Below, piece by piece: positions 16,685-60,775 of a DNA stretch of 64,000 bases (its first letter is position 1; each line of letters opens with the position of its first letter). Source of the stretch: Candidatus Parcubacteria bacterium (GTDB lineage: Bacteria > Patescibacteriota > Minisyncoccia > Phycocordibacterales > JAKAEA01); the NCBI GenBank assembly GCA_019661945.1, contig JAIFWI010000001.1, positions 6,342 through 70,341 on the forward strand, given 5' to 3'. Made by a program: the position numbers and the translations under genes. The notes beneath the pieces are model-generated. The model made no database searches. It saw nothing but the letters and a program-made list of their open reading frames with translations, and was not told the origin of the DNA.

Positions 16685-16750
16685 TTGATAAAAATTAAAA
16701 AAGATGTAATGTTCACTCTGGATATACCGTTCCTTTAACCGGAGGTTGTG

Positions 16751-24023: not shown

Positions 24024-25916
24024 CTATTCAAGGAGAGTTGCAATAAGATCTTCGACATTGCCGACGGCCACTCCGGCGTATGAATCAGCCGCGCCGTAAT
24101 ACATATAGAGCATGTTCTTTCGAATTACGGCGCCGCAAGGGAAGACCACGTTTCCAACTTGGCCTTCCCTTTCATATTTTTCTTTTGGTTCAAAAATAAA
24201 ATCAGAAGATCGGGCAATAACTTTTGTTGGATCTTTTTTATCAAGAAGAGCCAATCCTGCACGATATATGCCATCATCAGAGATTCCATGATATACAAAG
24301 AGCCAGCCATATTCGGTTTCAAGTGGCGGACAAGAAAGGCCGACTTTTTTACTATCCCACATACCTGGGCGCGGTTTCATAATGACAACATGATCAGTTA
24401 CTCGGGTCGGATTTATAAGATCAACAAAGCTGGCCCAAATTTCGTGATTAATACGATGAATAAAAAGATGTTTGCGGCCCTTTTTAACGGGCATAATGCA
24501 GGCATCCTTATCATCGGTGCCGACAGGAGAAATAAGAATGGATGGTTCCCAGCGCCAGCGTCGGGCGAGAAAATCATCTGCGGTGATACTGGTCATGGCT
24601 ACAGCCGGCGGTTCAATGCCATTATAGGCTGTATAGGTCATATAAATTCGGTTGCCGACAAGTACGGCCCGGGCATCTTCACAGCCAGAATTGCCATTCG
24701 GCACGCCTTTTCTTTCAAATGTTTCATGCGGAGTATAGATCGGATCTTTAAGCCGCTCGCTAATCGTCACACCGTCATTTGATACGGCATAACCGATAGT
24801 CGAAGTATTATCTTCGGACATTGCTCGATATAAGAGGTGAACCTGGCCATGTAGTTCAAAGGCAGCTGGATTAAACACAGCTCTATTTTCCCAACTGTTT
24901 TTTGTTGGTTTCAAAATAGGATTTTTGGCTGAGCGGAGCAGAATCTTCTCTCGCCCACCGAGCATACTGAAAATAAGATGCGATAGGGTGACTTCAGTGA
25001 TAGAAACAGTCGTATCAGTACTGCCATAAAAAATACGTAAGGTGTCCCCTTCTATAACCGCGCCAGAAGGGAAAATAGTATTTGGTACGGTGCCATATTT
25101 TTCGTATGATTCTTCCGGCACAAACATTGGTGATGAAGTTCTGCCGATTATTTTTTTAGGATCTTTGAGGTCGAGCAATACGGCTTCAATACCAAACACT
25201 TTATCCGGGCTAAAATATTTTTGAATATGAGCGTAGATCAAAAGCCAGCCATACTTAGTTTTAAGTGGTACTGCACCAACTTCGATTTGGTCGTCATCTT
25301 TACGCTTCAGGTTAACAATATGGCTATCAATATTTTTGTACCATTTATTCCAGAACTCGGCTGACCACATCTCCTCTTCCCTCTCGCATTGAGCAATAGC
25401 AATTTTTGACGGTGGTAAATCTGAATTTGCCGTTAAAATCATCGTGAATTTGCCGTTAATTTTTTCAGGAAATAAAGCCATAGCTTTTGAATTGAATGGT
25501 GTCACCAAATGCTTAGCGGTAATTGTTTCCAAATCATTGCTGACAGCTACGCCAATTTTTATACCTTCTGCATTAAACGGAAAATGAGACAGTGCCGTAT
25601 AAAATGTATAATATTTGCCATTCAAATATGTTACCCGAGGATCTTCACAGCCATAGCGTTCCCATTCTTTTTCTGGAGTGATATAGGCGCTGCGATTGCC
25701 GAAATGAATGCCGTCTTTGCTGGTAGCTTTGCAAATTTGTGACATTGAGAATTGGCTATTCTCAAATCGCTCAGGTGTTGACATTGCTCGATACAACAAA
25801 TGGGTCGTTGATCGAATTTGGATTGGGCAGCCATTAAAAACAGCATAAGCCTCCCAAGGATGGTCTTGGACTGGGCTCAATATTGGATTGTGGACTGAAC
25901 GACGGACGACAAACAT
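24024..25916 (-). CDS. Tandem-domain GH130/DUF377-like beta-propeller glycosidase/phosphorylase
   Basis: Two repeats of NPA...LLYRAMS...IGYA.S.DG...GCEDPRV/GCEDARA...Y.TY motif pattern; 630 aa. Confidence 0.6.
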   Translation of the reverse strand: MFVVRRSVHNPILSPVQDHPWEAYAVFNGCPIQIRSTTHLLYRAMSTPERFENSQFSMSQICKATSKDGIHFGNRSAYITPEKEWERYGCEDPRVTYLNGKYYTFYTALSHFPFNAEGIKIGVAVSNDLETITAKHLVTPFNSKAMALFPEKINGKFTMILTANSDLPPSKIAIAQCEREEEMWSAEFWNKWYKNIDSHIVNLKRKDDDQIEVGAVPLKTKYGWLLIYAHIQKYFSPDKVFGIEAVLLDLKDPKKIIGRTSSPMFVPEESYEKYGTVPNTIFPSGAVIEGDTLRIFYGSTDTTVSITEVTLSHLIFSMLGGREKILLRSAKNPILKPTKNSWENRAVFNPAAFELHGQVHLLYRAMSEDNTSTIGYAVSNDGVTISERLKDPIYTPHETFERKGVPNGNSGCEDARAVLVGNRIYMTYTAYNGIEPPAVAMTSITADDFLARRWRWEPSILISPVGTDDKDACIMPVKKGRKHLFIHRINHEIWASFVDLINPTRVTDHVVIMKPRPGMWDSKKVGLSCPPLETEYGWLFVYHGISDDGIYRAGLALLDKKDPTKVIARSSDFIFEPKEKYEREGQVGNVVFPCGAVIRKNMLYMYYGAADSYAGVAVGNVEDLIATLLE

Positions 25917-25917
25917 A

Positions 25918-27783
25918 TTAAATAATTAAGGGTTGTTTAGGATTAAGTTCAATAGTAGCATCTTCTTTCACTTTCTCTAAAAATGAATCAAGCGGTGATG
26001 AGGCGACACATACGACCTTGTCTCCTCCGCCGTAATATACATACAGCTCATCATCTTTTATGATCGCTCCAGATGCGTACACCACTCCAGGCTTACCATC
26101 ATTTTCATAATGCATATCAGGACACAAAATGGGATGTGATGTTCGGTATAAAATTTTCTCAGGGTTATCAGTATCTAAAATCATTGCGCCGAGTTTGTAT
26201 TTGTGCGGATCAAAAACATCATTGGCATGATACAACAAGAGCCAGCCTGCCGGTGTTTTTATCGGTGGAGGCCCTGCGCCGCGAACTTTATTATCCCAAT
26301 GTTGCATTCGCCCGCCGATTGGCGGTTTACTTTTTATGAATGTTTTTCCATTAAACTCGGACAATGAATCGGCGTAGTGAATAGAAATTTGAGGTGTAAT
26401 GCTGTGGAGCACAGCAAATTTGCCTTTAACTTTTTCTGGGAACAGAACCCAATTCTTGTGGATTTCGCCGGGTGGAGAAATAAATTGTGGTCGCTTCCAT
26501 TTCCATATTTCATTATTCAAATCTTTTTGACTGATTGAGGTTAAGGCAATACGCATTGAATTCCAGCCGCCGAAAGCTAAATACGTAACATAAATCCGCT
26601 TGCCGATTTTAACTGCCCGTGGATCTTCACAGCCTGCCCAGCCACCGCCAGAAGCGTATTCAGCCGGATTATAGGTTCGTGAGCCAGCATCTATTTCAGG
26701 TCCTGGCAGAGCGTGACCATCATGCGGCTCATATACAGGCTCATCTCGTCGAGTGAAATCAAGGCCATCTTTACTTGAGGCATAACCCAGGACTGATAAA
26801 CCGCTTTTGCCGATAGCTCGGTACAAGAGGTGAATTTTGCCGTCGTCGTATATTGCCGCCGGATTAAAGACAGCTTCGTTCTCCCATTCATTTTCGCTAT
26901 GAGGAGCAATAATAGGATTTTTGGGATGACGCTTAAGATAAGGTTTCTCTTTTGGCGGACTGATTGCAGTTGTAAACGGTGTGGCCAAGACTGCCGTCAG
27001 GATTGAGCCATCTTCAGTCGCCCAAAAGAGTGTGGTCCTGCCTTCGAGTGTAATAAGACCTATTGGATAGGCTCGGTGCTTGCCCGTAACCTTGACCATG
27101 GCTTTCCAGACAGGAATATCAGAACGCCAAATAATTTTGCCCGGCTCGTCTCGTGAAAAGAGTACTGCTCCTGCCTGTATCATATCAAGGGTGCCATTTG
27201 AAATGGTTGCATCATAAAACATGAGGATTCCTCTTTTGGTTATGGTTGCCCCAATAATTTTCATGTCTCCCGAATCAAAGGCATAATTGCGAGATGTGTA
27301 TAAGAGTCCAGACTCTTTTGACCACTTCTTGAGATCTTTTGACTTGGCATGGGTAACGAAAAGTCCACCGAGGTACAAAATATAATTTGTTTTTGTTGTG
27401 GCATTGACTACGAGTGCGGCATCATTAGTTGAAATATCAAGTTCAGATTTCACTGACCACATGTACAAATCTTTTGAGGTGGCAATAATTAAATTCTTTT
27501 TGTGTTTTTCAGTACGAATATAGGTGGCAATCCAACCATCAACACTTTTAGCAAATTTAAAGTGGGAACATATTTTAGGATTCTCCTTTTTATCAGCAGT
27601 TATATAAATAGTAACTTCTTTGCTGATGGTTTTATAATGAGCTTCATCAGTGCTCCAAATAATTAAAAATTTTGAACTGACCGTTTTAATTTGCTTAACA
27701 AAAATACCAGTCAAACCATGATGCGACAAAACGCCGAGCGGCACTACATTTCCCAGTTTGTCTTTTATTTTTATGGGAGTCAT
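25918..27783 (-). CDS. Tandem-domain GH130/DUF377-like beta-propeller glycosidase/phosphorylase (paralog of downstream gene)
   Basis: VFNPAAIYDDGKIHLLYRAIGKSGLSVLGYASSKDG...GCEDPRAVKIGKRIYVTY; 621 aa, adjacent paralog. Confidence 0.6.
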   Translation of the reverse strand: MTPIKIKDKLGNVVPLGVLSHHGLTGIFVKQIKTVSSKFLIIWSTDEAHYKTISKEVTIYITADKKENPKICSHFKFAKSVDGWIATYIRTEKHKKNLIIATSKDLYMWSVKSELDISTNDAALVVNATTKTNYILYLGGLFVTHAKSKDLKKWSKESGLLYTSRNYAFDSGDMKIIGATITKRGILMFYDATISNGTLDMIQAGAVLFSRDEPGKIIWRSDIPVWKAMVKVTGKHRAYPIGLITLEGRTTLFWATEDGSILTAVLATPFTTAISPPKEKPYLKRHPKNPIIAPHSENEWENEAVFNPAAIYDDGKIHLLYRAIGKSGLSVLGYASSKDGLDFTRRDEPVYEPHDGHALPGPEIDAGSRTYNPAEYASGGGWAGCEDPRAVKIGKRIYVTYLAFGGWNSMRIALTSISQKDLNNEIWKWKRPQFISPPGEIHKNWVLFPEKVKGKFAVLHSITPQISIHYADSLSEFNGKTFIKSKPPIGGRMQHWDNKVRGAGPPPIKTPAGWLLLYHANDVFDPHKYKLGAMILDTDNPEKILYRTSHPILCPDMHYENDGKPGVVYASGAIIKDDELYVYYGGGDKVVCVASSPLDSFLEKVKEDATIELNPKQPLII

Positions 27784-32110: not shown

Positions 32111-32653
32111 TTATTTCAATAACTCAGCAAATTTGTGCTGAACTTTATCAAGCTTTGGATTAATAATGAGCTGGCAGTACGGCGCTGTTTGATTGCGGGC
32201 AAAATAATCTTGATGATATGACTCGGCAGGATAAAAAGTATCAAGCGGCGCCACTTCGGTGACAATAGGATTCCCTTCTTTTGACGAACCATTCAATTCT
32301 TGAATGAAAAGCTCAGCCTCAGATTTTTGCTCCGGTGTAGTATAAAAAATAGCTGAGCGATACTGGGTGCCGACATCATTTCCCTGGCGATTTTTCTGTG
32401 AACCATCGTGGGTGGCAAAGAATACCGTAAGCAAGTCGTGATATGCGGCGACGCTTGGGTCAAATTCAATCTGAACCACCTCAGCATGGCCCGTTTTGCC
32501 GCTGCAGACATCATCATAATTCGGCTGAGGTGTATTTCCCCCGGCATATCCGGGCATGACAGCCGTAACGCCTTTGAGCATTTTAAATACCGCCTCTGTG
32601 CACCAAAAACATCCTCCGCCAAATACTGCTATTTCTTTATTTTTCGTTGTCAT
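32111..32653 (-). CDS. msrA: Peptide methionine sulfoxide reductase A
   Basis: AVFGGGCFWCTEAVF catalytic GCFWC motif; 180 aa. Confidence 0.9.
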   Translation of the reverse strand: MTTKNKEIAVFGGGCFWCTEAVFKMLKGVTAVMPGYAGGNTPQPNYDDVCSGKTGHAEVVQIEFDPSVAAYHDLLTVFFATHDGSQKNRQGNDVGTQYRSAIFYTTPEQKSEAELFIQELNGSSKEGNPIVTEVAPLDTFYPAESYHQDYFARNQTAPYCQLIINPKLDKVQHKFAELLK

Positions 32654-32739
32654 ATAAATAATTATATCAGAATATCATAAACACTTGCCTTTTTTGCTCA
32701 TCTGGTTTATATTCTTACCCAGACACCTTCCACCATTTA

Positions 32740-33057
32740 CCTGGAAAAACGAACACATTGGCACGCCCGCAAGGGCTACCTCGGAGCCAGGGATTACGGC
32801 TCTAGCACGATACAGCATTGAACTGGTCCGACCCTCCGAGACGGAGGAAAATGCTGAAAAGCGGCAGGCGCGAAACAATCCCGGGCGGTGTAATAACCTC
32901 TGGGCAAAGTAGCGCTGAGACTAGGGACTGGCTGTCCCTGCCGATGCATTTTTGAGGCCTGACTGCTTCATCCGCTGTTGAAACTGTTGGAGGAACAGCC
33001 GTCGCGTACACCCATCTTTGAACCCCGCTCGCATGCCTGCTGCGGGGTTTCCTTTTG
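32740..33057 (+). ncRNA. Candidate structured non-coding RNA (~320 nt, GC-rich, unclassified) ending in intrinsic terminator
   Basis: No ORF >95 aa and no RBS; about 57% GC vs <40% flanks; multiple local hairpins (cctccg aga cggagg; gggac tggct gtccc; gctgtt...aacagc) and terminal ccccgc...gcgggg + UUUCCUUUU. tmRNA, RNase P, SRP consensus motifs not found. Confidence 0.3.
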
Positions 33058-33315
33058 TCAAAAATTTGCTTATAAAATAACACAGCCCCTATCTAACGGA
33101 TGGCGGTGCGAGGTCTTTCTGTAAGCTCTTATTTACAGTCTTTATCTTTTCTTGATGAAAATTTTATCTGGTACTGAATATAGCATAATCCCAACTCGCA
33201 AATAAAATACATCATTAATTCATTTCCCTATTCCCAGTACATTTGTTATTTTTCACACACAATATATTGTTATCTGTGGCCGTTATATAGATTTGGGGTT
33301 ATCCGAAATGAGAAA

Positions 33316-34083
33316 ATGCTTGCTTTGATTTGTGTTAAATGCTATATTTTCCCCATGAATAACGACGAGAAGATATTGACGCCTCCCTATCTCTCTGTAA
33401 GGAAGATAGTTGAGATGATTGAATTGGTTTCAAGCAGAAACTACCCAGAGGGTATATCTACCGATTTCTTCAAGAGCAGAGGTTTTAGTTCTGCAGACGC
33501 CACGCTTGCAGTTAATACGCTAAAGTTTCTTAATCTCTTGAAAGAAGATGGCACCCCGACGGAACATATGGAAAAGATGAGAATAAAGGGCGAAGACCGC
33601 AAACCTGAATTTGAGAAAATTATACGCTTGGGTTACAAAAAACTTTTTGATACTGTAGACAGTCCACATGAACTGCCTAAAGATAAACTTGAAACTGAGT
33701 TTATTGCTGTGTACAAACTATCTGATAGAATTGTTGCATCAGCAATACCGGCATTTTATAGATTGTGTATGTATGCTGGTCTCAGAGAAGAGAAAGCAGT
33801 ATCAAAGGCTCCAATTTCAAGAGATGGGAGTGCCAAACCAGCTTTTTCTCCGCAGCCGAAAAAAGCTAATCTCAAAAATCAAGGTGTTTCTGTACGTAAT
33901 GGTTTTTCTGTGTTGCCTATTTCTGGTGGTAAATTTGAACTTCATCTTCCTGAAGAATGGAAGAATCGGCTCCTTGATGAGGAGGATGCTGAAGTGAAGT
34001 GGCGCATTGCAAGAACAGCTTTGAAAAATCTAGCAGATACGCTCAGCAAGGATTCTGATATCAAAGATACAGAGGATAATTAA
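33316..34083 (+). CDS. Hypothetical protein (255 aa)
   Basis: Uninterrupted ORF; no family recognised; followed by ccccc aaaagc ggggg hairpin. Confidence 0.45.
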   Translation: MLALICVKCYIFPMNNDEKILTPPYLSVRKIVEMIELVSSRNYPEGISTDFFKSRGFSSADATLAVNTLKFLNLLKEDGTPTEHMEKMRIKGEDRKPEFEKIIRLGYKKLFDTVDSPHELPKDKLETEFIAVYKLSDRIVASAIPAFYRLCMYAGLREEKAVSKAPISRDGSAKPAFSPQPKKANLKNQGVSVRNGFSVLPISGGKFELHLPEEWKNRLLDEEDAEVKWRIARTALKNLADTLSKDSDIKDTEDN

Positions 34084-34278
34084 GCTTATTAAAAACACAA
34101 TACCCCCAAAAGCGGGGGCATTAGCTTGATTACTCGGAGCCGTTCTACTAAAAACGGGCGGGGTCAGCGACAAACTGATATTTAAACTCGCATAGTGACT
34201 TCGGGCCCGAAGTCTTCCTAAACTACATGTAGTATGAGTAACTTGTCAAAATAGTGCCTCTCCCTTTGTGGATATTGA

Positions 34279-34358
34279 TGCGCCGGTGACGAAACAGGTA
34301 TCTGTTTTGTGAATAGGATGTCTTTCGAGATTTACGGGTTCGAATCCCGTCCGGCGCA
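34279..34358 (+). tRNA. tRNA-like element: intact 7-8 bp acceptor stem and canonical T-arm (ACGGG-TTCGAAT-CCCGT), 6-bp/4-nt D-arm-like hairpin, UUCG variable hairpin, but no canonical anticodon arm (possible pseudo-tRNA / island attachment site)
   Basis: gcgccgg...acgggttcgaatcccgt ccggcgc a; GTTCGAATC T-loop perfect; interior 47 nt cannot form standard anticodon stem-loop. Confidence 0.35.
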
Positions 34359-34442
34359 TACTTGACTTTGTGGCGTAAGTATATTGTAGCATATTTTTTG
34401 ATTTGCTGTCAATGACCTAACTTATTAAGCGTGGATAACTTG

Positions 34443-34856
34443 TTAAAGTTCTCCGCGGTTTGCCTTGCCCACAAATTCTTCTAGGGAAATAATATCTACT
34501 TTCTCACAGTTTTTTAGGTAATCATTAAGTCCACCACCAATGTAAAAATCTCTTAAAGTCCATCCGGCTCCTCCCAAAACAAGATACGCCGAGTGATACT
34601 CACCTTCATTAATTGCTTTAGCCAGTGAGATAATTTCGAAAGGTACTTTCTGTTCAGCTGTACCCCCCACCTGCTGCCACTTAAGGGAAACTAAGTATTT
34701 TTTACCTTGTTTCTCTGCAAGAGCATCAACTTTATGCTTTCTTCCTCCAGGTCGTAAACCAACTAGTACTTGGCCTTTATATGCATATCCGCCTCTCTCT
34801 AATGATGGAATTATCATCTGTTCAAGAACTCCCCCAGTACCAGTATCTCTAGGCAT
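34443..34856 (-). CDS. Small hypothetical protein, putative restriction endonuclease partner of adjacent Dam-family MTase
   Basis: 137 aa, translationally coupled (2-nt gap) downstream of MTase; possible D...E.K (KVDALAEKQGKKYLVSLKW) nuclease-like motif; no firm family call. Confidence 0.3.
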   Translation of the reverse strand: MPRDTGTGGVLEQMIIPSLERGGYAYKGQVLVGLRPGGRKHKVDALAEKQGKKYLVSLKWQQVGGTAEQKVPFEIISLAKAINEGEYHSAYLVLGGAGWTLRDFYIGGGLNDYLKNCEKVDIISLEEFVGKANRGEL

Positions 34857-34857
34857 A

Positions 34858-35691
34858 CTATAAATTTCTAGTTGCTAAAACTTCTTTTGCTTTTGTTCTA
34901 TCCCCCGTAGAATTAATCATACGTGGAGCATCAAGCAATTGTACACTAAATCCATATTTTTTGTAGAGTTTAATAATTCTATCTGTTGCTTGGTTCGAAA
35001 GTACAACAGGACCCTTATGTCTCGATAGCCATTCAGCAGTACGTATTTGGTCATCCCATGTGAATCCTCCAGTGGAATATTGCGTAAATTGTACATCATA
35101 TGGAGGATCTGCATATATAAAGTCTTCAGTTTCGGTATCAAGATTTTCAAAATCTGTATTCATAAATTGCCACTTTGAAAACAACTTTTTATATTCCTCA
35201 AAATCTTGCTTATATGTAACAGTTTTATACTTACCAAATGGTACATTAAACTCACCCTTGCTGTTGAATCTACATAATCCGTTGAAGCCAGTTCTGTTGA
35301 GATAATAAAAAAGTATAGCAGCTTCCTTACTGTTCGAATTATTGGATCGAATGTAATTATTAAAATCTGTACGATATTGGTAATAAAGTTCTTGATTGTA
35401 TTCTAGAGGGATGTTAACCTTCAGGCCCTTTCTTAGGTGTAAATAAAAATTGATTAGATGTTCATTGATATCATTTACTAACGCCCTTTTAGGTAGAAGC
35501 CCAAGGGTCACAGCAAGTCCGCCAGCAAACGGTTCAACTAAGCGTTTCTCCATGTGTGGCATCCACAACTTTATCAACTCTGGAACAAGCCATCGCTTAC
35601 CTCCCGCCCATTTTAAAGGAGGTTTTACACCGACCTCGAGTTTATACTTATCCTTAGTAAATAGTGACATTGTATATTCCATATTTTGCAT
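34858..35691 (-). CDS. DNA adenine methyltransferase, Dam/D12-class (N6-adenine, probable GATC specificity)
   Basis: Motif I LKWAGGKRWL, FxGG (EPFAGGLAV), motif IV DPPY (FIYADPPYD); 277 aa. Confidence 0.85.
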   Translation of the reverse strand: MQNMEYTMSLFTKDKYKLEVGVKPPLKWAGGKRWLVPELIKLWMPHMEKRLVEPFAGGLAVTLGLLPKRALVNDINEHLINFYLHLRKGLKVNIPLEYNQELYYQYRTDFNNYIRSNNSNSKEAAILFYYLNRTGFNGLCRFNSKGEFNVPFGKYKTVTYKQDFEEYKKLFSKWQFMNTDFENLDTETEDFIYADPPYDVQFTQYSTGGFTWDDQIRTAEWLSRHKGPVVLSNQATDRIIKLYKKYGFSVQLLDAPRMINSTGDRTKAKEVLATRNL

Positions 35692-35838
35692 TATTTAGTG
35701 CTTATAAACAACTTTACATTTTAGAATGTTGAGATGAAATTTAAATAAAGAAAGTATGAAGTTTTTAATTTGACTTACCATAAAAACATTGTAATATCTA
35801 TATAGATCAGCAGAGGGGTCCTCAGAAAAGGAGACAAT

Positions 35839-36108
35839 ATGAAAAGGTTTTTGCGGTTTTTGGTTCATGAGCCAATCTTCAAGTTCCTGCCGAAATTTCT
35901 GACCTGGGCCATGTTTGTGATGGTAGCAATACTCGTCCTTGGTGCGCTTCAGGATAATCGAGTTGCTCAAGACATCGTGGATCGACCGGGTGCGATGTTG
36001 ATGTATGTCATTGTTGCGCCAACAGGTGTTGTCTTGATTTCCGCCATTTTTGAGATGTTGTTGGTCATTCCGAAGTACCGGCGCTACTGCCGGGATGGTT
36101 ACTGCTAA
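35839..36108 (+). CDS. Small 2-TM membrane protein, paralog A (GC-rich module)
   Basis: GGAGACAAT-ATG RBS; MKRFLRFL...IPKYRRYCRDGYC; paralogous to 36611..36928. Confidence 0.5.
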   Translation: MKRFLRFLVHEPIFKFLPKFLTWAMFVMVAILVLGALQDNRVAQDIVDRPGAMLMYVIVAPTGVVLISAIFEMLLVIPKYRRYCRDGYC

Positions 36109-36125
36109 GCGAAAGGAGCTCGACA

Positions 36126-36313
36126 TGTTTCATTTGATCGCTGAGCACTGGGTGCTTACGCTATCGATCCTGTGGTTTGTGGCGGTGCTTCTGTCCATCG
36201 TAATCTGCATAGCCGTAAAGTGTCCAAAGTGCGGTTGGTGGCCAATGGGCAGAAGAGGGCATACCTTCCACTGCCTGTGGTGTGGTCATCAGTTCGAAAA
36301 AAAGACCAGTTAA
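36126..36313 (+). CDS. Small membrane protein with C-terminal zinc-ribbon (CPKC...CLWC)
   Basis: AAAGGAG RBS 7 nt upstream; TM helix then CxxC-x13-CxxC. Confidence 0.45.
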
Positions 36314-36315
36314 TC

Positions 36316-36344
36316 AAGCCCGTTCCACTGGAATGGGTTTTTTC
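36316..36344 (+). terminator. Intrinsic terminator (cccgttcc actgg aatggg + U6)
   Basis: Hairpin + TTTTTT; near-identical copy with compensatory changes at 36932-36960. Confidence 0.65.
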
Positions 36345-36447
36345 TTGTACAAATTTTGGTCTAATTCTTAATTTGACTTCCCACAGAGATATTGTAGCCT
36401 TTAGGTAGATAGCCAAAGGGGTCTTTTACAAGCCAGGAGATCGGCCT

Positions 36448-36597
36448 ATGATCCAATTGAAGCCGGGTGCAGGCAGGATGCGGGATTGCATCATAGCCGC
36501 GATTGTACTTGCGGCTGTATTGGGTACTGTAGTCTACCTTACGTACCGTCCCAACGTAGATTGGGATGAGTCCCTCATCAAGACAGTGTCCCCTTAA
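36448..36597 (+). CDS. Very small hydrophobic ORF (49 aa)
   Basis: MIQLKPGAGRMRDCIIAAIVLAAVLGTVVYLTYRP...; single TM; immediately upstream of paralog C RBS. Confidence 0.25.
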   Translation: MIQLKPGAGRMRDCIIAAIVLAAVLGTVVYLTYRPNVDWDESLIKTVSP

Positions 36598-36610
36598 AAA
36601 GGAGTCTCTG

Positions 36611-36928
36611 ATGAAGAAGTTTCTGAAGAATTTCTTTAGTTTCCTGAGGACGGAAGAGGTGCCCGATGCAATGCTGATAGTCTTGATCGCCCTGGCGGTA
36701 GTTGGAACGCTCATGCTCGTCAGTGGAAATTTGGCCGGTGACCGAGCCTCGCAGCTCATTATGAGCAACCTCGCGAGCAGCCTAATCGTTTTGTTTGGTA
36801 TCCCAATTCTCGGGGCTGCTGCGGTAGGCATTCTGATGACGCTCTTCAAGATTCCGAAGTACCTACGCTACCGCAAGGAAGACAGGCTACTGCTAGAAAG
36901 GAGTCGATTCACAAAAGAGATCAGTTAG
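36611..36928 (+). CDS. Small 2-TM membrane protein, paralog C
   Basis: AAAAGGAG RBS; MKKFLKNFF...IPKYLRYRKED; shares N-term MK(R/K)FL and ...IPKY(R/L)RY with paralog A. Confidence 0.5.
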   Translation: MKKFLKNFFSFLRTEEVPDAMLIVLIALAVVGTLMLVSGNLAGDRASQLIMSNLASSLIVLFGIPILGAAAVGILMTLFKIPKYLRYRKEDRLLLERSRFTKEIS

Positions 36929-36931
36929 TCA

Positions 36932-36960
36932 AGCCCGTTCTACCAGGATGGGTTTTTTGT
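36932..36960 (+). terminator. Intrinsic terminator (cccgttcta ccagg atggg + U6), duplicate of 36316 terminator
   Basis: agttagtcaagcccgttctaccaggatgggtttttt vs agttaatcaagcccgttccactggaatgggtttttt: stem changes are compensatory. Confidence 0.65.
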
Positions 36961-37009
36961 TTGACTAACTATTAAGAATGTTGTAATTTATTAGTAGACC
37001 GAGGGGAAT

Positions 37010-37324
37010 ATGGATTCCCTGCCTTATGTTAAGGAGAAGCTCATGAAGCGATCCGAAGACACCAGAACTTACGGAGATGAACACGGCCGGGTCATTCCCC
37101 ACCTGTTCCTGACGAATTCTGCGCTTTGGCCGCCACGGCTTGTCGAGGCGCTCAAAGACCAGATGCGTCTGACACCAGACGAATGCAAGCGGCTCAAGCT
37201 TGGAACGGCCCAGCGACAGGAGTTTGATCAACTCGTTCGGCTCTGGCACGCTTTTGGCGGAGCACAGGAAGCTGAGCAATTCATTCACACTCAATCCGGC
37301 CTAGGCGCCTTTGCCGGCGACTAG
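37010..37324 (+). CDS. Hypothetical soluble protein (104 aa, GC-rich)
   Basis: GAGGGGAAT-ATG RBS; followed by strong terminator. Confidence 0.4.
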   Translation: MDSLPYVKEKLMKRSEDTRTYGDEHGRVIPHLFLTNSALWPPRLVEALKDQMRLTPDECKRLKLGTAQRQEFDQLVRLWHAFGGAQEAEQFIHTQSGLGAFAGD

Positions 37325-37354
37325 AAGCTTTAAGGCAATATCACGAACCCGCTG

Positions 37355-37399
37355 AGCCCGTCCGCGACAACATTTGTACTGTCGCAGGCGGGTTTTTTC
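37355..37399 (+). terminator. Intrinsic terminator (12-bp GC stem + U6)
   Basis: cccgtccgcgaca acatttgtact gtcgcaggcggg tttttt. Confidence 0.7.
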
Positions 37400-37451
37400 T
37401 TTGTCGCAATTTTCTTGCAATTATTGCTTTTATGGTTAGTATTACTTCAGA

Positions 37452-37477
37452 GCACCTGTGTAGGTGCCTGTTTTTTG
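37452..37477 (+). promoter_or_regulatory. Hairpin + U-run in purL leader (gcacct gtgt aggtgc ctg UUUUUU): possible attenuator/second terminator
   Basis: Lies 35 nt upstream of purL ATG, 55 nt after the preceding strong terminator. Confidence 0.3.
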
Positions 37478-37511
37478 ACACGAACGAAAACAACAAACAA
37501 AGGAGGCACAA

Positions 37512-40500
37512 ATGCCACCAATCTATCGCTTCTATCGACAAGTGAGTGAAGATCTCGAATACGGCTTCTACGTTGAGGCCAGCGAGTTTCTGGACGCCGG
37601 AGAGTATCTCCGGCTTGAATGGATCATCGCTGAGACATTTGAACCGACGATGACTCGCCCGGATTCCATCTGGTTTCCGGCCGAAGTCATCGAAATCGGT
37701 CCGCGGCTTTCGATCGAGACTCCGTTCTCATCGAATGCAGTGGCAATTTGTCACAACGCAGGTTTGACCAAGGTCACTCGCTTCGAACGCACTCGCCGCT
37801 ATCGCCTGGCCCCGGGCCAGTCAGTGGCGGATGTGCTCGAAGCCAACCTCGATCGAATGACCGAGCAGCACTATCCCACTGGGATCGTGAGCTTTGAAAC
37901 CGGCCGTAAGCCGGAAGGTGTGCGGGAAATCGATGTCATCGGCAATCCGATCATCGCTCTCCAGAACGCCAACAAAGAGCTTGGCCTTAGCATGGATGCC
38001 AGGGATCTTGCCTATTATGAAGAACTCTTCGCTGACACTCTCGGTCGAAACCCGACCGATGTCGAGCTCCTGAAGCTCGGCAACGACAACAGTGAACATA
38101 GCCGGCACTGGCTCTTCAGAGGAATGCAGATCATCAATGGTGTACGGATGTCGAAGACTCTCTTCGAACTTGTCCAGGAACCGCTGAAGCGGCTCGGCGA
38201 CAACAATGTCAGCCTGGTCGCATTCAGAGATAATGCCGGAGTGATTAAAGGCTTTTGGACTGAGGTGCTGCTGCCGGAAGATCCGGGCCAGCCATCAGTA
38301 CTTCGCCTGACTCGAAAATATGTCCACAATACCGACACGGCCGAAACGCATAATCATCCGACTGGTGTTGCAGCTTTCCCCGGTGCTCAAACAGGTGCCG
38401 GCGGACGGATTCGCGACAACAGTGCGGTTGGATGCGGCGGTCTTCCCGGAATCGGAGTGGCCGGATATTTTGTCGGCAATCTCTTTATTCCAGGGTACCA
38501 GATACCCGGAGAGAATGTTGGACATGACATGCCGTCGACGTACGCCTCACCGCTCACGATTCTTGTCGAGGGCTCAAATGGCGTCACATCGTACGGTAAT
38601 GAATTCGGCGAACCATTGACCCTTGGCTTCACCCGAAGCTTTGGTCAAATGGTTGACGGCAAATGGCGTGAACCGCGAAAGCCGGTGCTCTACAGCGCTG
38701 GTATCGGTTCTATCTTTGATGAACACGTCAAAAAGGAAAAGGCCGAAATCGGCATGCTCATCGTGCGCATTGGCGGCCCGGCTTACCCCATTGGGGTCGG
38801 CGGCGGCAGTGCCTCAAGCATGATGCAAGGTTCGAATACCGAACAGCTTGATTATAATTCCGTTCAACGCGGCAACGCTGAGATGGAAAATCGAGCCAAT
38901 CGAGTCATTCAAGCTTGTGTGGAAATGGGCAGCGAAAATCCCATTTCGAGCATTCACGACCAAGGCGCTGGCGGTCCGAGCAATGTTTTGACGGAGCTCG
39001 TCGAACCGCTGGGCGGCAGAATCAACATTCGCAACATTGTTCTTGGCGACAAGACGATGTCAATCAGAGAAATCTGGTGCGGCGAATATCAGGAAGGCTA
39101 CGGTTTCCTTATCAGAAAAAATCGGATCGAATTTTTCCAATCGATCTGCCAACGTGAGCGGGTTAATTGTGAAATTCTCGGAGAAATCGACGGCAGCGGT
39201 AAAATCGTTGTCGAAGATCCCGATACCGGTACAACGCCGGTAGATCTCAACCTCGACCAGATCCTAACGAAGATGCCTCAAAAGACGTTTGAATCACGAC
39301 GCCAAGAACTGAAGCTCGAACCTCTGGCCCTGCCGGATGTCAGCATCAGTGAAGCAATCAAGGCCGTGTTCAAACTTCTGCAGGTTGGTTCAAAGAATTT
39401 CCTGACAAGCAAAGGTGATCGAAGTGTCGGCGGCAAGGTCGCTCAGCAACAGTGCGTCGGCATCGCTCAGATTCCGATCGCTGACTTCAGCGTCCTAGCC
39501 CAAAGTCACTTTGGTCTGACCGGTGCAGCAGGCTCGATCGGTGAACAGCCGATTAAGATGCTCATTAATCCGGCTGCCGGAGCTCGGATGGCCGTCGGTG
39601 AAATGATTCTGAACATGGCTGGTGTCCGCATTAGTAATCTCGGCGATATTCGTTGTCGGGCAAACTGGATGTGGGCGGCTAAGCTCGAGAACGAAGGCGC
39701 AAACCTCTACGATGCAGCTGTGGCCGCGACCGGTCTCTTGACCGATCTTGGTGCGGCGATTGATGGGGGTAAAGACAGCCTGACGATGGCTGCACGAGTT
39801 CATGGCCATCTGGTCATTGCGCCTGGACAATTGGTGATGCTTGGAACGGCTCCCGTGCCTAACATTACCAAGAAGGTCACCCCTGACATCAAGAAGCCGG
39901 ATGGAAGTTTCCTCTGTCTGATTGATCTCGGTGGTGGCAAAAATCGCCTCGGCGGCGGAAGCTTAGCCCAGGCTAACAACCAAATTGGCAATGAATCACC
40001 TGATGTCGAAAGTTCGCTGCTTCTCAAGAACACGTTTCTTGCGGTTCAGCAGATGATTGACGAAGGAGTGATTCTGGCCTATCACGATCGAAGCGATGGC
40101 GGTCTTTTCACTACCGTCGCCGAGATGTGCATGGCCAGCCGATGTGGCTTTGATCTTCAGGTTAATGATCACCGACATGCTCTGGCTGAACTCTTCAACG
40201 AAGAGCTCGGTGCAGTGATTGAGGTAGCACCGATACACGATAAGCGGGTGCGTGAAATCTGCGAATCGTTTGACGTGCCGATCTCACTCATTGGTGCTAC
40301 GCATGCCGACGGCAAGTGCAGCATTCGAGCGATGTCTTCTGACCATGAGTTGTGGAGTGGCAACATTTCGCTACTGCGTTTGTGGTGGGAGGAGACAAGC
40401 TCGCGGCTTGAAGCTCTGCAGTCGGATCCTGATTGTGCCCGGGCAGAATACCTTGGTCACGTTGACCTTCTGCCTGGAATCAACAGCGCTCCATCATACA

Positions 40501-41354
40501 GACTTCGATTTACACCGGCAGAAACGCCGCCAGAAATTCTCAAAGTCCGAAACAATCCCCGCGTGGCAGTATTGCGCGAGGAAGGTACGAACGGCGATCG
40601 AGAAATGCAGGCAGCATGTTTTGCCGGAGGTCTTGCCGCGTGGGACGTCACCATGAGTGACCTCATCGCAGGCAGGATCGACCTGGACGAATTCCAGGGA
40701 ATCATTTTCGCCGGTGGATTTTCCTTCATGGATGTGCTCGACAGCGCCAAGGGCTGGGCAGCAACAATTCGCTACAACACGCGTGTGCGCGAAATGTTTG
40801 CTCGCTTCTATGGCCGTAAGGACACCTTCTCACTTGGTGTCTGCAACGGTTGTCAGCTCATGGCTCTGCTTGGATTAGTTCCACTCGAAGATCTCCAGGC
40901 TGATATGCAGCCGAGATTTGTGAGGAACGAGTCCCGTCGCTTTGAGTCTCGTTGGGTTCAGGTAGAAGTTTTGCCAAGCCCGGCGATTCTCCTTCGCGGC
41001 ATGGAAGGTTCGAAACTCGGTGTCTGGGCTGCCCATGGTGAAGGCCGACTGGTATATCCAAGCCAGACGGTAGCGGATGTGGTGCGTTTGAGAAATCTTG
41101 CGCCCCTCGCCTTCCTCGATCCCCATGGCAATCAGACTGAAGAGTATCCTCATAACCCGAACGGTTCGCCGGGCGGGATTACAGCCCTCTGTTCGCATAA
41201 TGGGCGGCATCTTGCAATGATGCCTCACCCTGAACGTTGTTTTCGTTTGTGGCAGTGGCCGTGGATGCCGCCCTCATGGAGTAGCCTCAGCGCTTCTCCA
41301 TGGCTCCGGATGTTTCAGAACGCCCGCACGTGGTGTTTGGAACATTCGAAGTAG
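37512..41354 (+). CDS. purL: Phosphoribosylformylglycinamidine (FGAM) synthase, large single-chain type (PurL with fused glutaminase)
   Basis: 1280 aa; N-domain, FGAM synthetase ATP-grasp-like core, C-terminal class I GATase (GVCNGCQLMALLG catalytic Cys); GC ~56%. Confidence 0.9.
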   Translation: MPPIYRFYRQVSEDLEYGFYVEASEFLDAGEYLRLEWIIAETFEPTMTRPDSIWFPAEVIEIGPRLSIETPFSSNAVAICHNAGLTKVTRFERTRRYRLAPGQSVADVLEANLDRMTEQHYPTGIVSFETGRKPEGVREIDVIGNPIIALQNANKELGLSMDARDLAYYEELFADTLGRNPTDVELLKLGNDNSEHSRHWLFRGMQIINGVRMSKTLFELVQEPLKRLGDNNVSLVAFRDNAGVIKGFWTEVLLPEDPGQPSVLRLTRKYVHNTDTAETHNHPTGVAAFPGAQTGAGGRIRDNSAVGCGGLPGIGVAGYFVGNLFIPGYQIPGENVGHDMPSTYASPLTILVEGSNGVTSYGNEFGEPLTLGFTRSFGQMVDGKWREPRKPVLYSAGIGSIFDEHVKKEKAEIGMLIVRIGGPAYPIGVGGGSASSMMQGSNTEQLDYNSVQRGNAEMENRANRVIQACVEMGSENPISSIHDQGAGGPSNVLTELVEPLGGRINIRNIVLGDKTMSIREIWCGEYQEGYGFLIRKNRIEFFQSICQRERVNCEILGEIDGSGKIVVEDPDTGTTPVDLNLDQILTKMPQKTFESRRQELKLEPLALPDVSISEAIKAVFKLLQVGSKNFLTSKGDRSVGGKVAQQQCVGIAQIPIADFSVLAQSHFGLTGAAGSIGEQPIKMLINPAAGARMAVGEMILNMAGVRISNLGDIRCRANWMWAAKLENEGANLYDAAVAATGLLTDLGAAIDGGKDSLTMAARVHGHLVIAPGQLVMLGTAPVPNITKKVTPDIKKPDGSFLCLIDLGGGKNRLGGGSLAQANNQIGNESPDVESSLLLKNTFLAVQQMIDEGVILAYHDRSDGGLFTTVAEMCMASRCGFDLQVNDHRHALAELFNEELGAVIEVAPIHDKRVREICESFDVPISLIGATHADGKCSIRAMSSDHELWSGNISLLRLWWEETSSRLEALQSDPDCARAEYLGHVDLLPGINSAPSYRLRFTPAETPPEILKVRNNPRVAVLREEGTNGDREMQAACFAGGLAAWDVTMSDLIAGRIDLDEFQGIIFAGGFSFMDVLDSAKGWAATIRYNTRVREMFARFYGRKDTFSLGVCNGCQLMALLGLVPLEDLQADMQPRFVRNESRRFESRWVQVEVLPSPAILLRGMEGSKLGVWAAHGEGRLVYPSQTVADVVRLRNLAPLAFLDPHGNQTEEYPHNPNGSPGGITALCSHNGRHLAMMPHPERCFRLWQWPWMPPSWSSLSASPWLRMFQNARTWCLEHSK

Positions 41355-58014: not shown

Positions 58015-58078
58015 AGAGCTATTATAGCAAAGAAAAAAGGACCGTTTCCGGTCCAGGTGTACATTTCGTTTCAACTTC

Positions 58079-59503: not shown

Positions 59504-59642
59504 GCGAGTCCTTTCCCACGACTAATGTGTCGTGTATGCCTTGGTTTGTGAGGGAGAACGTTCTAAAGTTCATGTATATCATACTTGCATAAAATTTGCT
59601 AGTAAATAAAAAAACCGCACCACAACGTAGTACGGAATCAAT

Positions 59643-60617: not shown

Positions 60618-60775
60618 GAGATTCTCCTTCGGCTTTTGCCGGGTGAATGTCAAACAGTCCAGATTATTTGTACCATATTTGAACACTCGAGCATATTTGA
60701 CAATACTATATTTATAATGTAGTTTAATGACTGGCAGAAGTTGAAACCCTAGTCCTCTAGCAGAAGGAGCTTCTC

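What the first reader, a model, noticed from the sequence alone, without database searches (positions are those of the whole stretch)
32654..37400. Island-like accessory stretch: structured GC-rich non-coding region, orphan ORF, tRNA-like element, Dam-family R-M pair, duplicated small-TM gene module
Between msrA and purL the composition and gene style change. The stretch contains a ~320-nt GC-rich ORF-free segment with many hairpins and its own terminator, a 255-aa orphan ORF, and an 80-nt tRNA-like element. Immediately next come a Dam/D12 MTase plus a coupled 137-aa putative REase. After these lies a GC-rich block of 4-5 tiny membrane/zinc-ribbon protein genes, each with strong AAGGAG-type RBS and individual terminators. 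A tRNA-like sequence adjacent to R-M genes and lineage-specific small genes is the classic footprint of a tRNA-targeted integrative island, here apparently without a retained integrase in the window.
Basis: partly seen in the sequence, partly recalled or inferred. Interest (0 to 1): 0.55.

Follow-up and report, generated by a model that had tools for sequence, protein, structure and literature searches.

The report
Patchwork accessory region with hybrid tRNA cassette
The stretch is not a single island inserted at a tRNA but several unrelated accessory units, and its most interesting unit is a small, probably mobile cassette, found in several candidate-phyla-radiation bacteria, that links a DNA/RNA-binding protein, a structured RNA and a leucine-shaped tRNA carrying a threonine anticodon (damaged in this genome).

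Summary
The window is a ~42% GC Parcubacteria (CPR) contig.

- **"Orphan" ORF:** it is a DUF5343 / PADLOC PDC-M34A-like winged-helix protein.
- **"tRNA-like element" (34280-34358):** it is a damaged copy of a conserved tRNA. In six independent lineages (DUF5343 39-68% identical) the gene is followed by a covarying structured RNA and then a class II tRNA. That tRNA has a tRNA-Leu body (A73, A15-U48, G18G19, A20a, long variable arm) but the Thr anticodon UGU.
- **Damage in the window copy:** it lacks 6 nt (the D-stem 3' strand) and has A37G. ARAGORN does not call it.
- **Cassette setting:** neighbours differ between lineages. It sits beside an IS1595 transposase in three lineages and between perfect 24-nt inverted repeats in one. 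A near-consensus antisense promoter faces the tRNA.
- **No island signature:** the 64 kb holds no integrase next to the tRNA and no repeat of its 3' half.
- **Other parts:** the D12 methylase + PD-(D/E)XK pair is a widely travelled two-gene cassette. The small membrane-protein unit is a true tandem duplicate. purL (54% GC) belongs to the high-GC block. The 337-nt GC-rich ORF-free segment shows no significant structure or homologue.
- **Genetic code:** ACA still encodes Thr here.

The parts
32720..33056 (+). GC-rich (56%) ORF-free segment. It has a promoter-like site at 32685-32713 and a terminator-like hairpin plus U-run at 33028-33056. Its nature is unexplained.
   Evidence: No Rfam hit at E<=10. 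Fold z -1.6/-0.9. No Pfam signal in any of its ORFs. No match in plasmids, phages, fetched loci or elsewhere in the window. Not a transposase remnant.
33355..34083 (+). DUF5343 gene (242 aa): a winged-helix nucleic-acid-binding protein, PDC-M34A-like. A promoter-like TTGCTT-17-TATATT lies at 33320-33348 and ends 6 nt before the ATG (read from sequence).
34098..34277 (+). Conserved structured RNA between the DUF5343 stop codon and the tRNA. A ~32-bp closing helix (34098-34133 with 34238-34277) encloses four hairpins, for example GACUUCGGGCCCGAAGUC.
   Evidence: Alignment of 5 lineages. 90.5% of cells paired, 17 of 58 pairs with double changes, 0/500 shuffles reach this. MFE z -3.4. The + strand is favoured: -47.4 vs -36.5 kcal/mol, with many G-U pairs.
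34098..34123 (-). Hairpin plus U-run that reads as an intrinsic terminator on the minus strand, placed directly after the DUF5343 stop codon.
   Evidence: The same site is called in L093 and L095. Its A.C mismatches on the + strand become G.U pairs on the - strand (read from the alignment).
34280..34358 (+). Degenerate copy of the cassette's Leu-type class II tRNA with anticodon UGU. A 6-nt deletion removes the D-stem 3' strand, and A37 is changed to G. The acceptor stem, T arm and variable arm are intact.
   Evidence: Rfam 37.7 bits here vs 50-55 bits in relatives. ARAGORN gives no call here but tRNA-Thr(tgt) in L081, L091, L093, L095, L101. Alignments. The MFE fold has a 9-bp hairpin in place of the D and anticodon arms.
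34383..34412 (-). Near-consensus promoter-like site (TTGACA-18-TACAAT, with TG) pointing back into the tRNA and structured RNA. Together with the minus-strand terminator it defines a ~280-nt antisense unit.
   Evidence: It is the best promoter-like site in the region (11/12). The equivalent site is the best in L101 (11/12) and L095 (10/12). L093 has TTGACA-18-TCAATA by eye.
34443..34856 (-). 137-aa PD-(D/E)XK nuclease-family protein (PF20472), the putative restriction partner.
   Evidence: 2653 homologues, 63-76% identical across phyla. Always directly after a 274-aa D12 methylase in L125-L128.
34858..35691 (-). D12-class N6-adenine DNA methyltransferase (277 aa).
   Evidence: PF02086 1.6e-46. 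PADLOC MTase_II/oMTase models. PHROG 56.
35762..36353 (+). Small-gene unit 1: promoter region, an 89-aa membrane protein (35839-36108), a 62-aa membrane and Cys-x2-Cys protein (36125-36313), and a terminator (36316-36345).
36365..36968 (+). Small-gene unit 2, a tandem duplicate: promoter region, a 49-aa membrane protein (36448-36597), a 105-aa paralogue of the 89-aa protein (36611-36928), and a terminator (36931-36960).
   Evidence: Direct repeats D1-D3. BLASTP 29% identity, E 1e-5.
37043..41354 (+). High-GC block: orf104 (37010/37043-37324, 56% GC) and large single-chain purL (37512-41354, 54% GC).
   Evidence: TIGR01735 1436 bits. GC values. The best purL homologues (65-69%) are patescibacterial and sit there in a purM-purN-purL context that is absent here.

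Best explanation
SHOWN.
The interval is a patchwork of at least four unrelated accessory units in a ~42% GC Parcubacteria genome.
- An unexplained GC-rich ORF-free segment.
- A ~1.1-kb cassette, conserved in at least six patescibacterial lineages. Its order is: a winged-helix protein (DUF5343), then a ~180-nt RNA with a long covarying closing helix, then a class II tRNA, then a convergent near-consensus promoter.
- A widely travelled D12 methylase + PD-(D/E)XK nuclease pair.
- A tandemly duplicated small membrane-protein unit, followed by a high-GC orf104 and purL.

The cassette tRNA is built like tRNA-Leu but carries the threonine anticodon UGU. In this window its copy is damaged by a 6-nt deletion of the D-stem 3' strand and by A37G. 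The protein gene and the structured RNA are intact.

INFERRED MECHANISM.
- The cassette is transcribed from the promoter just before DUF5343, through the RNA and the tRNA.
- RNase P cleavage at the tRNA 5' end releases the tRNA. It leaves the upstream RNA ending at the foot of its closing helix.
- The tRNA keeps every determinant that bacterial LeuRS uses, and LeuRS ignores the anticodon. It also has only part of the ThrRS set. It is therefore expected to carry leucine, or a Leu/Thr mixture, to ACA codons. That would make it a dual-identity tRNA.
- More distant DUF5343 genes are followed in the same position by DUF3800 or NYN-nuclease genes. The tRNA thus occupies the 'effector' slot of a two-part, toxin/defence-like, transposon-associated module.
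- The antisense transcript and the winged-helix protein would keep the tRNA in check.
- In this genome the tRNA arm of the module is probably inactivated.
For: Cassette conservation:
- All DUF5343 homologues at 55-68% identity with enough downstream DNA, plus one at 39% (L101), have the spacer RNA and then a tRNA(UGU).
- Flanking genes differ between lineages.

The tRNA is real in relatives:
- In the cloverleaf, 96% of cells are paired and 15 of 23 pairs show double changes; 0/500 shuffles reach this.

Leu body:
- Its nearest neighbours among 23 other tRNAs are tRNA-Leu(GAG).
- The 5' halves are nearly identical to the L027 tRNA-Leu.
- A73, A15, G18G19, A20a and U48 are invariant.
- These are the E. 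coli LeuRS determinants, and the anticodon is not one of them (PMC9976931).
- Ordinary patescibacterial tRNA-Thr genes are 74-76 nt class I molecules.

RNA structure.

Antisense unit.

Mobility:
- An IS1595 transposase lies upstream in L091, L092 and L101.
- A perfect 24-nt inverted repeat bounds the cassette in L081.
- A shared right-end motif occurs in L081, L091 and L101.

Variable partner genes: DUF3800 and NYN.

Damage in the window copy.

R-M cassette. Duplication. Composition and purL.

No att repeat.

Precedents for natural dual-identity or irregular tRNAs: PMC10404621 and PMC5389517.
Against: - No expression, processing or aminoacylation data exist. The amino acid carried is inferred from E. 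coli identity rules that may not hold for patescibacterial LeuRS or ThrRS.
- The tRNA also has G1-C72, C2-G71, G35, U36 and A37. It could therefore simply be a Thr-accepting tRNA of unusual ancestry.
- ACA is decoded as Thr in these genomes. It aligns with invariant Thr in purL and DUF5343. Any Leu insertion must therefore be minor or conditional.
- Only 5-6 independent sequences support the RNA structure.
- The cassette is absent from IMG/VR.
- Mobility evidence is circumstantial: no target duplications were defined, and the window has no transposase.
- I could not check whether the same genomes also hold a canonical tRNA-Thr(UGU).
- The GC-rich segment remains unexplained.
Confidence: 0.5

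Rival explanations
1. One reading: one integrative island that entered at a tRNA gene. The tRNA-like element would be the attachment-site remnant, and the integrase has been lost or lies outside the window.
For: - Foreign-looking genes (the R-M pair, the small genes, the high-GC purL) lie on the 3' side of the tRNA-like element.
- In L081 a tyrosine-recombinase gene lies 1.7 kb downstream of the homologous tRNA.
Against: - The tRNA 3' half has no direct repeat in 64 kb.
- No integrase lies next to the tRNA or in the 30-42.7 kb interval that was examined.
- The downstream units differ in GC (36%, 47%, 54%). They recur separately elsewhere.
- The tRNA is tied to the gene on its 5' side, not to the cargo on its 3' side.
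Confidence: 0.1
2. Ordinary housekeeping locus. The tRNA is this clade's normal tRNA-Thr(UGU), charged by ThrRS, which happens to descend from a tRNA-Leu. DUF5343 and the spacer are conserved neighbours through vertical inheritance. The window copy is a sequencing or assembly error, or is still functional.
For: - The anticodon loop U33-UGU-A37-A38 is conserved, and G1-C72 and C2-G71 are present.
- ACA is common (30% of Thr codons) and means Thr.
- All loci come from Patescibacteria.
Against: - Other Patescibacteria in the fetched loci have class I tRNA-Thr genes, with GGU or CGU anticodons.
- G4-C69 and G5-C68 of the bacterial Thr set are absent, while the full Leu set is kept.
- Neighbours change on both sides, and an IS1595 transposase or inverted repeats adjoin the cassette.
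- A housekeeping tRNA for 1.9% of all codons could not lose its D stem.
Confidence: 0.2
3. The tRNA acts mainly as a processing handle, not a decoder. RNase P and RNase Z cuts at the tRNA define the 3' end of the DUF5343 mRNA or release the structured RNA as a stable small RNA. That RNA would be the real product.
For: - The closing helix of the RNA ends 2-3 nt before tRNA position 1.
- The window copy keeps exactly the parts RNase P needs (acceptor stem and T arm, with compensatory changes) while losing the D stem.
- In L101 the tRNA flanks pair for a further 19 bp.
Against: - The anticodon, the anticodon stem (5 of 5 pairs covary), G18G19 and the D stem are conserved in all other lineages. 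A mere handle would not need them.
Confidence: 0.15
4. Artefact: the composition shifts reflect a chimeric metagenome-assembled contig, not biology.
For: - The source is a MAG contig.
- GC jumps from 36% to 54% within 3 kb.
Against: - The DUF5343, nuclease and purL proteins are all recorded from the same 94,757-bp NCBI contig.
- The best homologues of msrA, DUF5343 and purL are all patescibacterial.
- Other GC-rich genes are scattered through the window.
Confidence: 0.05

Closest known systems
Dual-identity mistranslating tRNAs of Streptomyces/Kitasatospora (tRNAProX, e.g. tRNAProT: proline body with Thr anticodon AGU; PMC10404621)
   Same: A bacterial tRNA whose body carries the identity of one amino acid and whose anticodon reads another (Thr codons). 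It is encoded beside a dedicated protein gene and is an accessory rather than a core gene.
   Different: The body here is Leu-type class II, and no special synthetase is needed, because LeuRS ignores the anticodon. The partner is a winged-helix protein, not an aaRS. A structured RNA and an antisense promoter are added. The host is a CPR bacterium. Mischarging is not demonstrated.
allo-tRNAs and other irregular tRNAs near toxin-antitoxin or transposon genes (Mukai et al., PMC5389517)
   Same: Long-variable-arm tRNAs with unexpected anticodons, found in metagenomes. They are often next to TA or transposon genes, and some copies are pseudogenes with broken stems. The authors suggest some are not used for translation.
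   Different: allo-tRNAs are defined by an 8/4 or 9/3 acceptor/T-stem layout and mostly Ser identity (G73). This tRNA is a canonical 7/5 with A73 and a Leu-type D arm.
Nematode nev-tRNAs (class II tRNAs with Gly/Ile anticodons charged with Leu; from my own knowledge, not checked here)
   Same: A Leu-type class II body combined with a non-Leu anticodon.
   Different: They are eukaryotic, dispersed nuclear genes with no cassette.
PADLOC candidate defence system PDC-M34 / DUF5343 family
   Same: The protein matches the PDC-M34A model (1.3e-18). More distant family members are first genes of two-gene units with DUF3800 or NYN-nuclease partners.
   Different: Here the partner position holds an RNA and a tRNA, not a protein. 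No function has been shown for the family, and no paper in the library mentions it.
tRNA-gene-targeted genomic islands
   Same: A tRNA-type sequence borders a run of foreign genes.
   Different: There is no integrase, no duplicated tRNA 3' end, heterogeneous cargo, and the tRNA belongs to its upstream gene.
Type II restriction-modification pairs with a Dam-like (D12) methylase
   Same: A D12 N6-adenine methylase is tightly coupled to a small PD-(D/E)XK protein. The pair is conserved and moves with recombinases and transposases.
   Different: The nuclease family (PF20472) has no solved or characterised member. Its specificity and restriction activity are untested.

Membership tests
tRNA (Rfam RF00005 / ARAGORN) | Scores above the Rfam gathering threshold | tested here: met
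   37.7 bits against a threshold of 29. Relatives score 50-55 bits.
tRNA (Rfam RF00005 / ARAGORN) | Complete cloverleaf with a D stem, called by a tRNA gene finder | tested here: not met
   ARAGORN finds 0 genes in the window. The D-stem 3' strand is deleted. The feature is met in L081, L091, L093, L095 and L101.
Canonical bacterial tRNA-Thr | Anticodon NGU with G35 and U36 | tested here: met
   UGU in all copies.
Canonical bacterial tRNA-Thr | Class I body (4-5 nt variable loop) and the acceptor determinants G1-C72, C2-G71, G4-C69, G5-C68 (PMC9976931) | tested here: not met
   The variable arm is 12-18 nt. Positions 4-69 and 5-68 are C-G, and only 1-72 and 2-71 fit. Ordinary patescibacterial tRNA-Thr genes are 74-76 nt.
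Bacterial tRNA-Leu | A73, A15-U48, G18G19, A20a, class II long variable arm (PMC9976931) | tested here: met
   All are invariant in the 6 cassette tRNAs and in a bona fide tRNA-Leu(GAG). The nearest neighbours are tRNA-Leu. The window copy keeps these bases but lacks the D stem that positions them.
Bacterial tRNA-Leu | A leucine anticodon (NAG or NAA) | tested here: not met
   The anticodon is UGU.
Bacterial tRNA-Leu | Is aminoacylated with leucine | not testable with these tools
   Needs an aminoacylation assay or mass spectrometry.
allo-tRNA | 8/4 or 9/3 acceptor/T-stem configuration | tested here: not met
   7-bp acceptor stem and 5-bp T stem.
tRNA-targeted integrative island | Direct repeat of the tRNA 3' end at the far border | tested here: not met
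   Only one match in 64 kb with up to 3 mismatches.
tRNA-targeted integrative island | An integrase gene next to the tRNA | tested here: not met
   The adjacent genes are DUF5343 and the PD-(D/E)XK protein, and Pfam gives no recombinase hit for the ORFs at 31.6-37.3 kb. An NCBIfam scan of a further 10 of the window's larger ORFs, including purL and dinB at 37.5-42.7 kb, also shows none. Not every ORF in the window was scanned.
Type II restriction-modification system | A DNA methyltransferase and a nuclease-fold protein as a conserved adjacent pair | tested here: met
   PF02086 and PF20472, 1 nt apart. The same pair occurs in L125-L128.
Type II restriction-modification system | Sequence-specific cleavage blocked by the cognate methylation | not testable with these tools
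   REBASE is not available and there is no solved relative.
PADLOC PDC-M34 candidate system | Component A present | tested here: met
   PDLC04589 1.3e-18.
PADLOC PDC-M34 candidate system | Further protein component(s) of the system adjacent | tested here: inconclusive
   No neighbouring protein in the window hits a PDC-M34 model. I do not know the system's full definition.
IS1595-family insertion sequence | DDE_Tnp_IS1595 transposase | tested here: not met
   No trace in the window. It is present beside the cassette in L091, L092 and L101.
Known structured RNA families (6S, RNase P, tmRNA, riboswitches etc.) | Match to an Rfam model, tested for the GC-rich segment and for the DUF5343-tRNA spacer | tested here: not met
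   Only the tRNA passes. Nothing else plausible appears at E<=10.

The most novel reading that the evidence does not exclude
The DUF5343-RNA-tRNA cassette is a mobile two-part toxin/defence-type module whose effector is an RNA. That effector is a leucine-accepting tRNA that reads the threonine codon ACA and so poisons or remodels the proteome when released. It would normally be held down by the winged-helix protein and by a convergent antisense transcript. The structured RNA would act as a sensor or stabiliser.
Probability: 0.15. Interest if true: 0.85.

Novelty: new variant of a known kind. Interest (0 to 1): 0.6.

Why it matters
If the cassette tRNA really carries leucine to threonine codons, it would be a naturally occurring mistranslating tRNA in the candidate phyla radiation.

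It would also differ from known cases in how it is packaged. It sits in a small transposon-associated unit with its own regulator-like protein, a structured RNA and antisense control. The known cases, Streptomyces tRNAProX and the allo-tRNAs, are not packaged this way.

The idea is directly testable, by aminoacylation assays and by expressing the tRNA in E. coli with reporter genes.

It also gives the uncharacterised DUF5343 / PDC-M34A family its first concrete partner.

For annotation, the lesson is practical. A 'tRNA-Thr' call, or a tRNA-like remnant next to restriction genes, need not mark an integration site. Composition alone also misplaced the island border: purL is inside the odd block, not outside it.

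Tried and rejected
- **Synteny via msrA.** 80 genome loci gave no shared neighbours, so the insertion could not be delimited.
- **Exact-protein look-ups.** The window's msrA and DUF5343 are not on record.
- **GC-rich segment as a known RNA.** Rejected by Rfam at the gathering threshold and at E<=10.
- **GC-rich segment as a strongly structured RNA.** Not supported.
- **GC-rich segment as a decayed gene or transposase.** No Pfam or tblastn signal.
- **GC-rich segment as homologous to the GC-rich ORF-free stretch after the tRNA in L081.** No similarity. It also has no plasmid or phage match.
- **Cassette on phages.** No DUF5343 relative in IMG/VR. The 19 hits to a 17-mer of the tRNA are chance, with no tRNA at those sites.
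- **ACA reassigned to Leu.** Rejected, because ACA aligns with invariant Thr.
- **purL as a recent import from outside the CPR.** Rejected, because the best homologues are patescibacterial.
- **Local hairpin after the DUF5343 stop as the + strand structure.** It shows no covariation, and the long-range helix is better supported.
- **Defining the IS ends in L101.** Only a weak 16-nt inverted repeat was found.
- **Literature.** No papers mention DUF5343 or PDC-M34.

Full report
**Setting.** The window averages 42.7% GC. Leaving out 35762-41354, the rest is 41.7%. The closest relatives of msrA (32111-32653, -) are Patescibacteria/Parcubacteria MAGs, at 73% identity or less. The DUF5343 protein, the small nuclease and purL are each recorded 100% identical from one 94,757-bp NCBI contig of 'Candidatus Parcubacteria bacterium'. 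None of the 80 msrA loci shares any neighbour with the window, so the insertion could not be delimited by synteny.

**Check of the observation.** Most of the listed parts exist.
- The GC-rich ORF-free segment (32720-33056, 56% GC) has a + strand promoter-like site and a good terminator-like hairpin.
- The claim of strong structure is not borne out. Whole-segment z is -1.6 (+) and -0.9 (-), and 120-nt windows range from +0.9 to -2.35.
- The segment has no Rfam match even at E<=10 and no Pfam signal in its ORFs. It shows no similarity to plasmids, phages, other loci or the rest of the window. It stays unexplained.
- The '255-aa orphan' starts at 33355 (242 aa). It is a DUF5343 protein (1.8e-19) that also matches PADLOC's candidate-defence model PDC-M34A (1.3e-18).
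- The methylase is D12 class. The 137-aa protein is PD-(D/E)XK family PF20472.
- The small-gene module is a real tandem duplication of a ~610-bp unit holding a promoter, two small membrane-protein genes and a terminator.

**The tRNA-like element.**
- Rfam scores 34280-34358 (+) as tRNA at 37.7 bits, but ARAGORN finds no tRNA in the whole window.
- Its minimum-energy fold has a 7-bp acceptor stem, a canonical T arm and a small UUCG hairpin. A 9-bp hairpin replaces the D and anticodon arms.
- The explanation came from relatives. Every DUF5343 homologue at 55-68% identity with enough downstream DNA (L081-L090/L097, L091, L093/94, L095/96), plus one at 39% (L101), is followed by a spacer and then a gene that ARAGORN calls tRNA-Thr(UGU). 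Those genes score 50-55 bits on Rfam.
- Aligned to these, the window copy lacks six bases (CCGTAC). They comprise the 3' strand of the D stem and the first base of the anticodon stem. It also has G instead of A at position 37.
- Its acceptor and T stems remain perfectly paired through compensatory changes.

**What kind of tRNA it is.**
- Across six cassette tRNAs plus one reference tRNA-Leu, the cloverleaf is 96% paired. Fifteen of 23 pairs show double changes, and 0/500 shuffles reach this.
- It is not like ordinary patescibacterial tRNA-Thr genes, which in the fetched loci are 74-76-nt class I molecules.
- It has a 12-18-nt variable arm. Its closest relatives among 23 other tRNAs are tRNA-Leu(GAG).
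- The 5' half of the L101 copy (GCGCCCGUGGCGAAACUGGUAGACGC) is almost identical to a tRNA-Leu (GCGCGGGUGGCGAAACUGGUAGACGC).
- A73, A15, U48, G18G19 and A20a are invariant. According to Giegé & Eriani these are the E. coli leucine determinants. The anticodon and the variable-arm sequence are not among them (PMC9976931).
- Of the bacterial threonine set it has G1-C72, C2-G71, G35 and U36, but not G4-C69, G5-C68 or G34.
- It is therefore a hybrid: a Leu-type body with a Thr anticodon. Which amino acid it carries cannot be decided from sequence.
- The code itself is standard. ACA aligns with invariant Thr in DUF5343 genes and in the window's purL. ACA makes up 30% of Thr codons in the window. The genome must therefore own a working ACA decoder, and the damaged cassette copy is unlikely to be it. 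This last step is an inference.

**The spacer RNA.**
- The ~190 nt between the DUF5343 stop codon and the tRNA are at least as conserved as the coding region (81% mean column identity over the whole window-L081 module alignment).
- RNAalifold on five lineages gives a long closing helix. It pairs window 34098-34133 with 34238-34277 and ends 2-3 nt before tRNA position 1. Four hairpins lie inside it.
- Counting pairs on that structure gives 90.5% paired. Seventeen of 58 pairs show double changes, ten of them in the closing helix, and 0/500 shuffles reach this. Slid controls give about 40% paired.
- The alternative local hairpin right after the stop codon shows no covariation.
- The + strand folds better than the - strand (-47.4 vs -36.5 kcal/mol) and uses many G-U pairs.
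- L101 has a different, shorter spacer that also forms a long stable hairpin (z -4.3). The window spacer has z -3.4.
- No Rfam family matches.

**Antisense unit.**
- The best sigma-70-like site in the window region is on the minus strand, just right of the tRNA (34412-34383, TTGACA-18-TACAAT, 11/12).
- The equivalent site is the best in L101 (11/12) and L095 (10/12).
- The hairpin after the DUF5343 stop, followed by a U-run, is called as a minus-strand terminator in the window, L093 and L095.
- Its + strand A.C mismatches become G.U pairs on the minus strand.
- Together these features delimit a ~280-nt transcript antisense to the tRNA and spacer. Transcription itself is inferred, not shown.

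**The protein and its family.**
- An AlphaFold model built from 60 sequences (pLDDT 88.6) has an N-terminal winged helix, a helical domain, a disordered linker and a C-terminal hairpin plus long helix.
- The family is small, with 542 clusters at 50% identity.
- More distant members are followed not by a tRNA but by a small ORF plus a DUF3800 protein (PDC-M04A-like), or by a NYN-domain nuclease.
- DUF5343 thus looks like the constant first gene of two-part units with a changeable second part. In the window's subfamily that slot holds RNA.

**Mobility of the cassette.**
- Neighbours differ among lineages. They are L27 and an Ada-like gene upstream with UDG downstream in L081, a methyltransferase and a deacetylase in L093, and msrA and the R-M pair here.
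- In L091, L092 and L101 the upstream, divergently oriented gene is an IS1595-family transposase, 69-71% identical among the three.
- In L081 the cassette alone is bounded by a perfect 24-nt inverted repeat.
- The right-hand repeat motif GTATATAGTTCCC recurs at the cassette's right edge in L091 and L101.
- The window has no transposase trace, and the cassette is absent from IMG/VR.
- This evidence for mobility is circumstantial.

**The other units.**
- The 137-aa nuclease-family protein has 2653 homologues, 63-76% identical across phyla.
- In unrelated contigs it always directly follows a 274-aa D12 methylase and sits among serine recombinases, rve/DDE transposases or Prim-Pol genes. This is a mobile methylase-nuclease pair whose specificity is unknown.
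- purL is a true large FGAM synthase. Its best homologues (65-69%) are patescibacterial, where it follows purM-purN and has the same ~53-54% GC.
- In the window purL lacks that context and stands 12 GC points above the genome. It is best read as part of the acquired high-GC block together with orf104 and perhaps the small-gene units.

**Island model.** The tRNA 3' half and its junction occur once in 64 kb, even allowing three mismatches. No integrase lies next to the tRNA or in the examined 30-42.7 kb interval. The three cargo blocks have different composition and separate histories. The interval is therefore a hotspot where independent accessory units have accumulated, not a single tRNA-targeted island.

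**Mechanism (inferred) and comparison.**
- Most likely the cassette is read from the promoter that abuts the DUF5343 start codon (33320-33348), through the RNA and the tRNA.
- RNase P then frees the tRNA and leaves the upstream RNA closed by its long helix.
- The tRNA, bearing a complete LeuRS determinant set, would deliver Leu, or a Leu/Thr mixture, to ACA codons.
- The antisense RNA and the winged-helix protein would limit this.
- Natural dual-identity tRNAs exist in Streptomyces, where a Pro body carries Thr or Asn anticodons. They are toxic in E. coli (PMC10404621).
- Irregular long-arm tRNAs, including broken pseudogenes, cluster with TA and transposon genes (PMC5389517).
- This tRNA fails the defining test for allo-tRNA, because it is 7/5. 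It has no dedicated synthetase. I therefore rate it a new variant of a known kind.
- I put about 0.85 on the descriptive account and about 0.2-0.25 on the mistranslation/effector mechanism. The stated 0.5 is a blend of the two.
- Rivals are a housekeeping Thr tRNA of odd ancestry (0.2), a processing handle for the RNA (0.15), the island model (0.1) and a chimeric contig (0.05).

Noticed in passing
window 37512-41354 (and 37010-37324): purL (54% GC, GC3 57%) and orf104 (56% GC) stand about 12 points above the rest of the window. The closest purL genes are patescibacterial and sit there behind purM-purN, which is missing here. This points to transfer within Patescibacteria. orf104 has a faint DUF4158 (Tn3 transposase N-terminus) hit, E 0.057.
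   Followed up: partly
L081 11095-11500: In the L081 lineage a ~400-nt GC-rich ORF-free stretch follows the cassette's right inverted repeat, before UDG. It has no Rfam hit at E<=1 and no similarity to the window's GC-rich segment.
   Followed up: partly
L101 2451-2476 / 2551-2576: The sequences flanking the L101 tRNA are complementary for a further ~19 nt. They extend the acceptor stem into a long helix in the precursor. This is not seen in the window-type cassettes.
   Followed up: no
L091 3-593, L101 516-1403: The IS1595-family transposase genes beside the cassette have a TTGACA-17-TA(G/A)GAT promoter-like site ending 6-7 nt before their ATG. The DUF5343 gene in the window has a similar layout (33320-33348). 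This suggests leaderless or near-leaderless mRNAs in these bacteria.
   Followed up: no
window 16748-18283 and 58000-61000: Further GC-rich patches (51-52% GC) lie in the 42% GC window. The 511-aa ORF at 16748-18283 has no NCBIfam match.
   Followed up: no
window 24024-27783: Two adjacent ~620-630-aa genes each carry GH130-type beta-1,2-mannobiose phosphorylase/mannosidase-like domains. This is a notable carbohydrate-use pair for a CPR genome.
   Followed up: no
window 34443-34856: NCBI annotates this nuclease-family protein as 124 aa, from an internal Met. Its 2653 homologues are 137-140 aa, so the longer ORF starting at 34856 is the likely gene.
   Followed up: yes
L016 1271-1355: ARAGORN gives an ambiguous call, 'tRNA-?(Gln|Ser)(tg)', for a sequence that is plainly a tRNA-Leu(GAG)-type gene nearly identical to that of L027.
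   Followed up: no
L101 2650-2870: A small Cys/His-rich ORF (about 56 aa) lies between the tRNA's antisense promoter and the cassette's right-end motif in L101 only.
   Followed up: no
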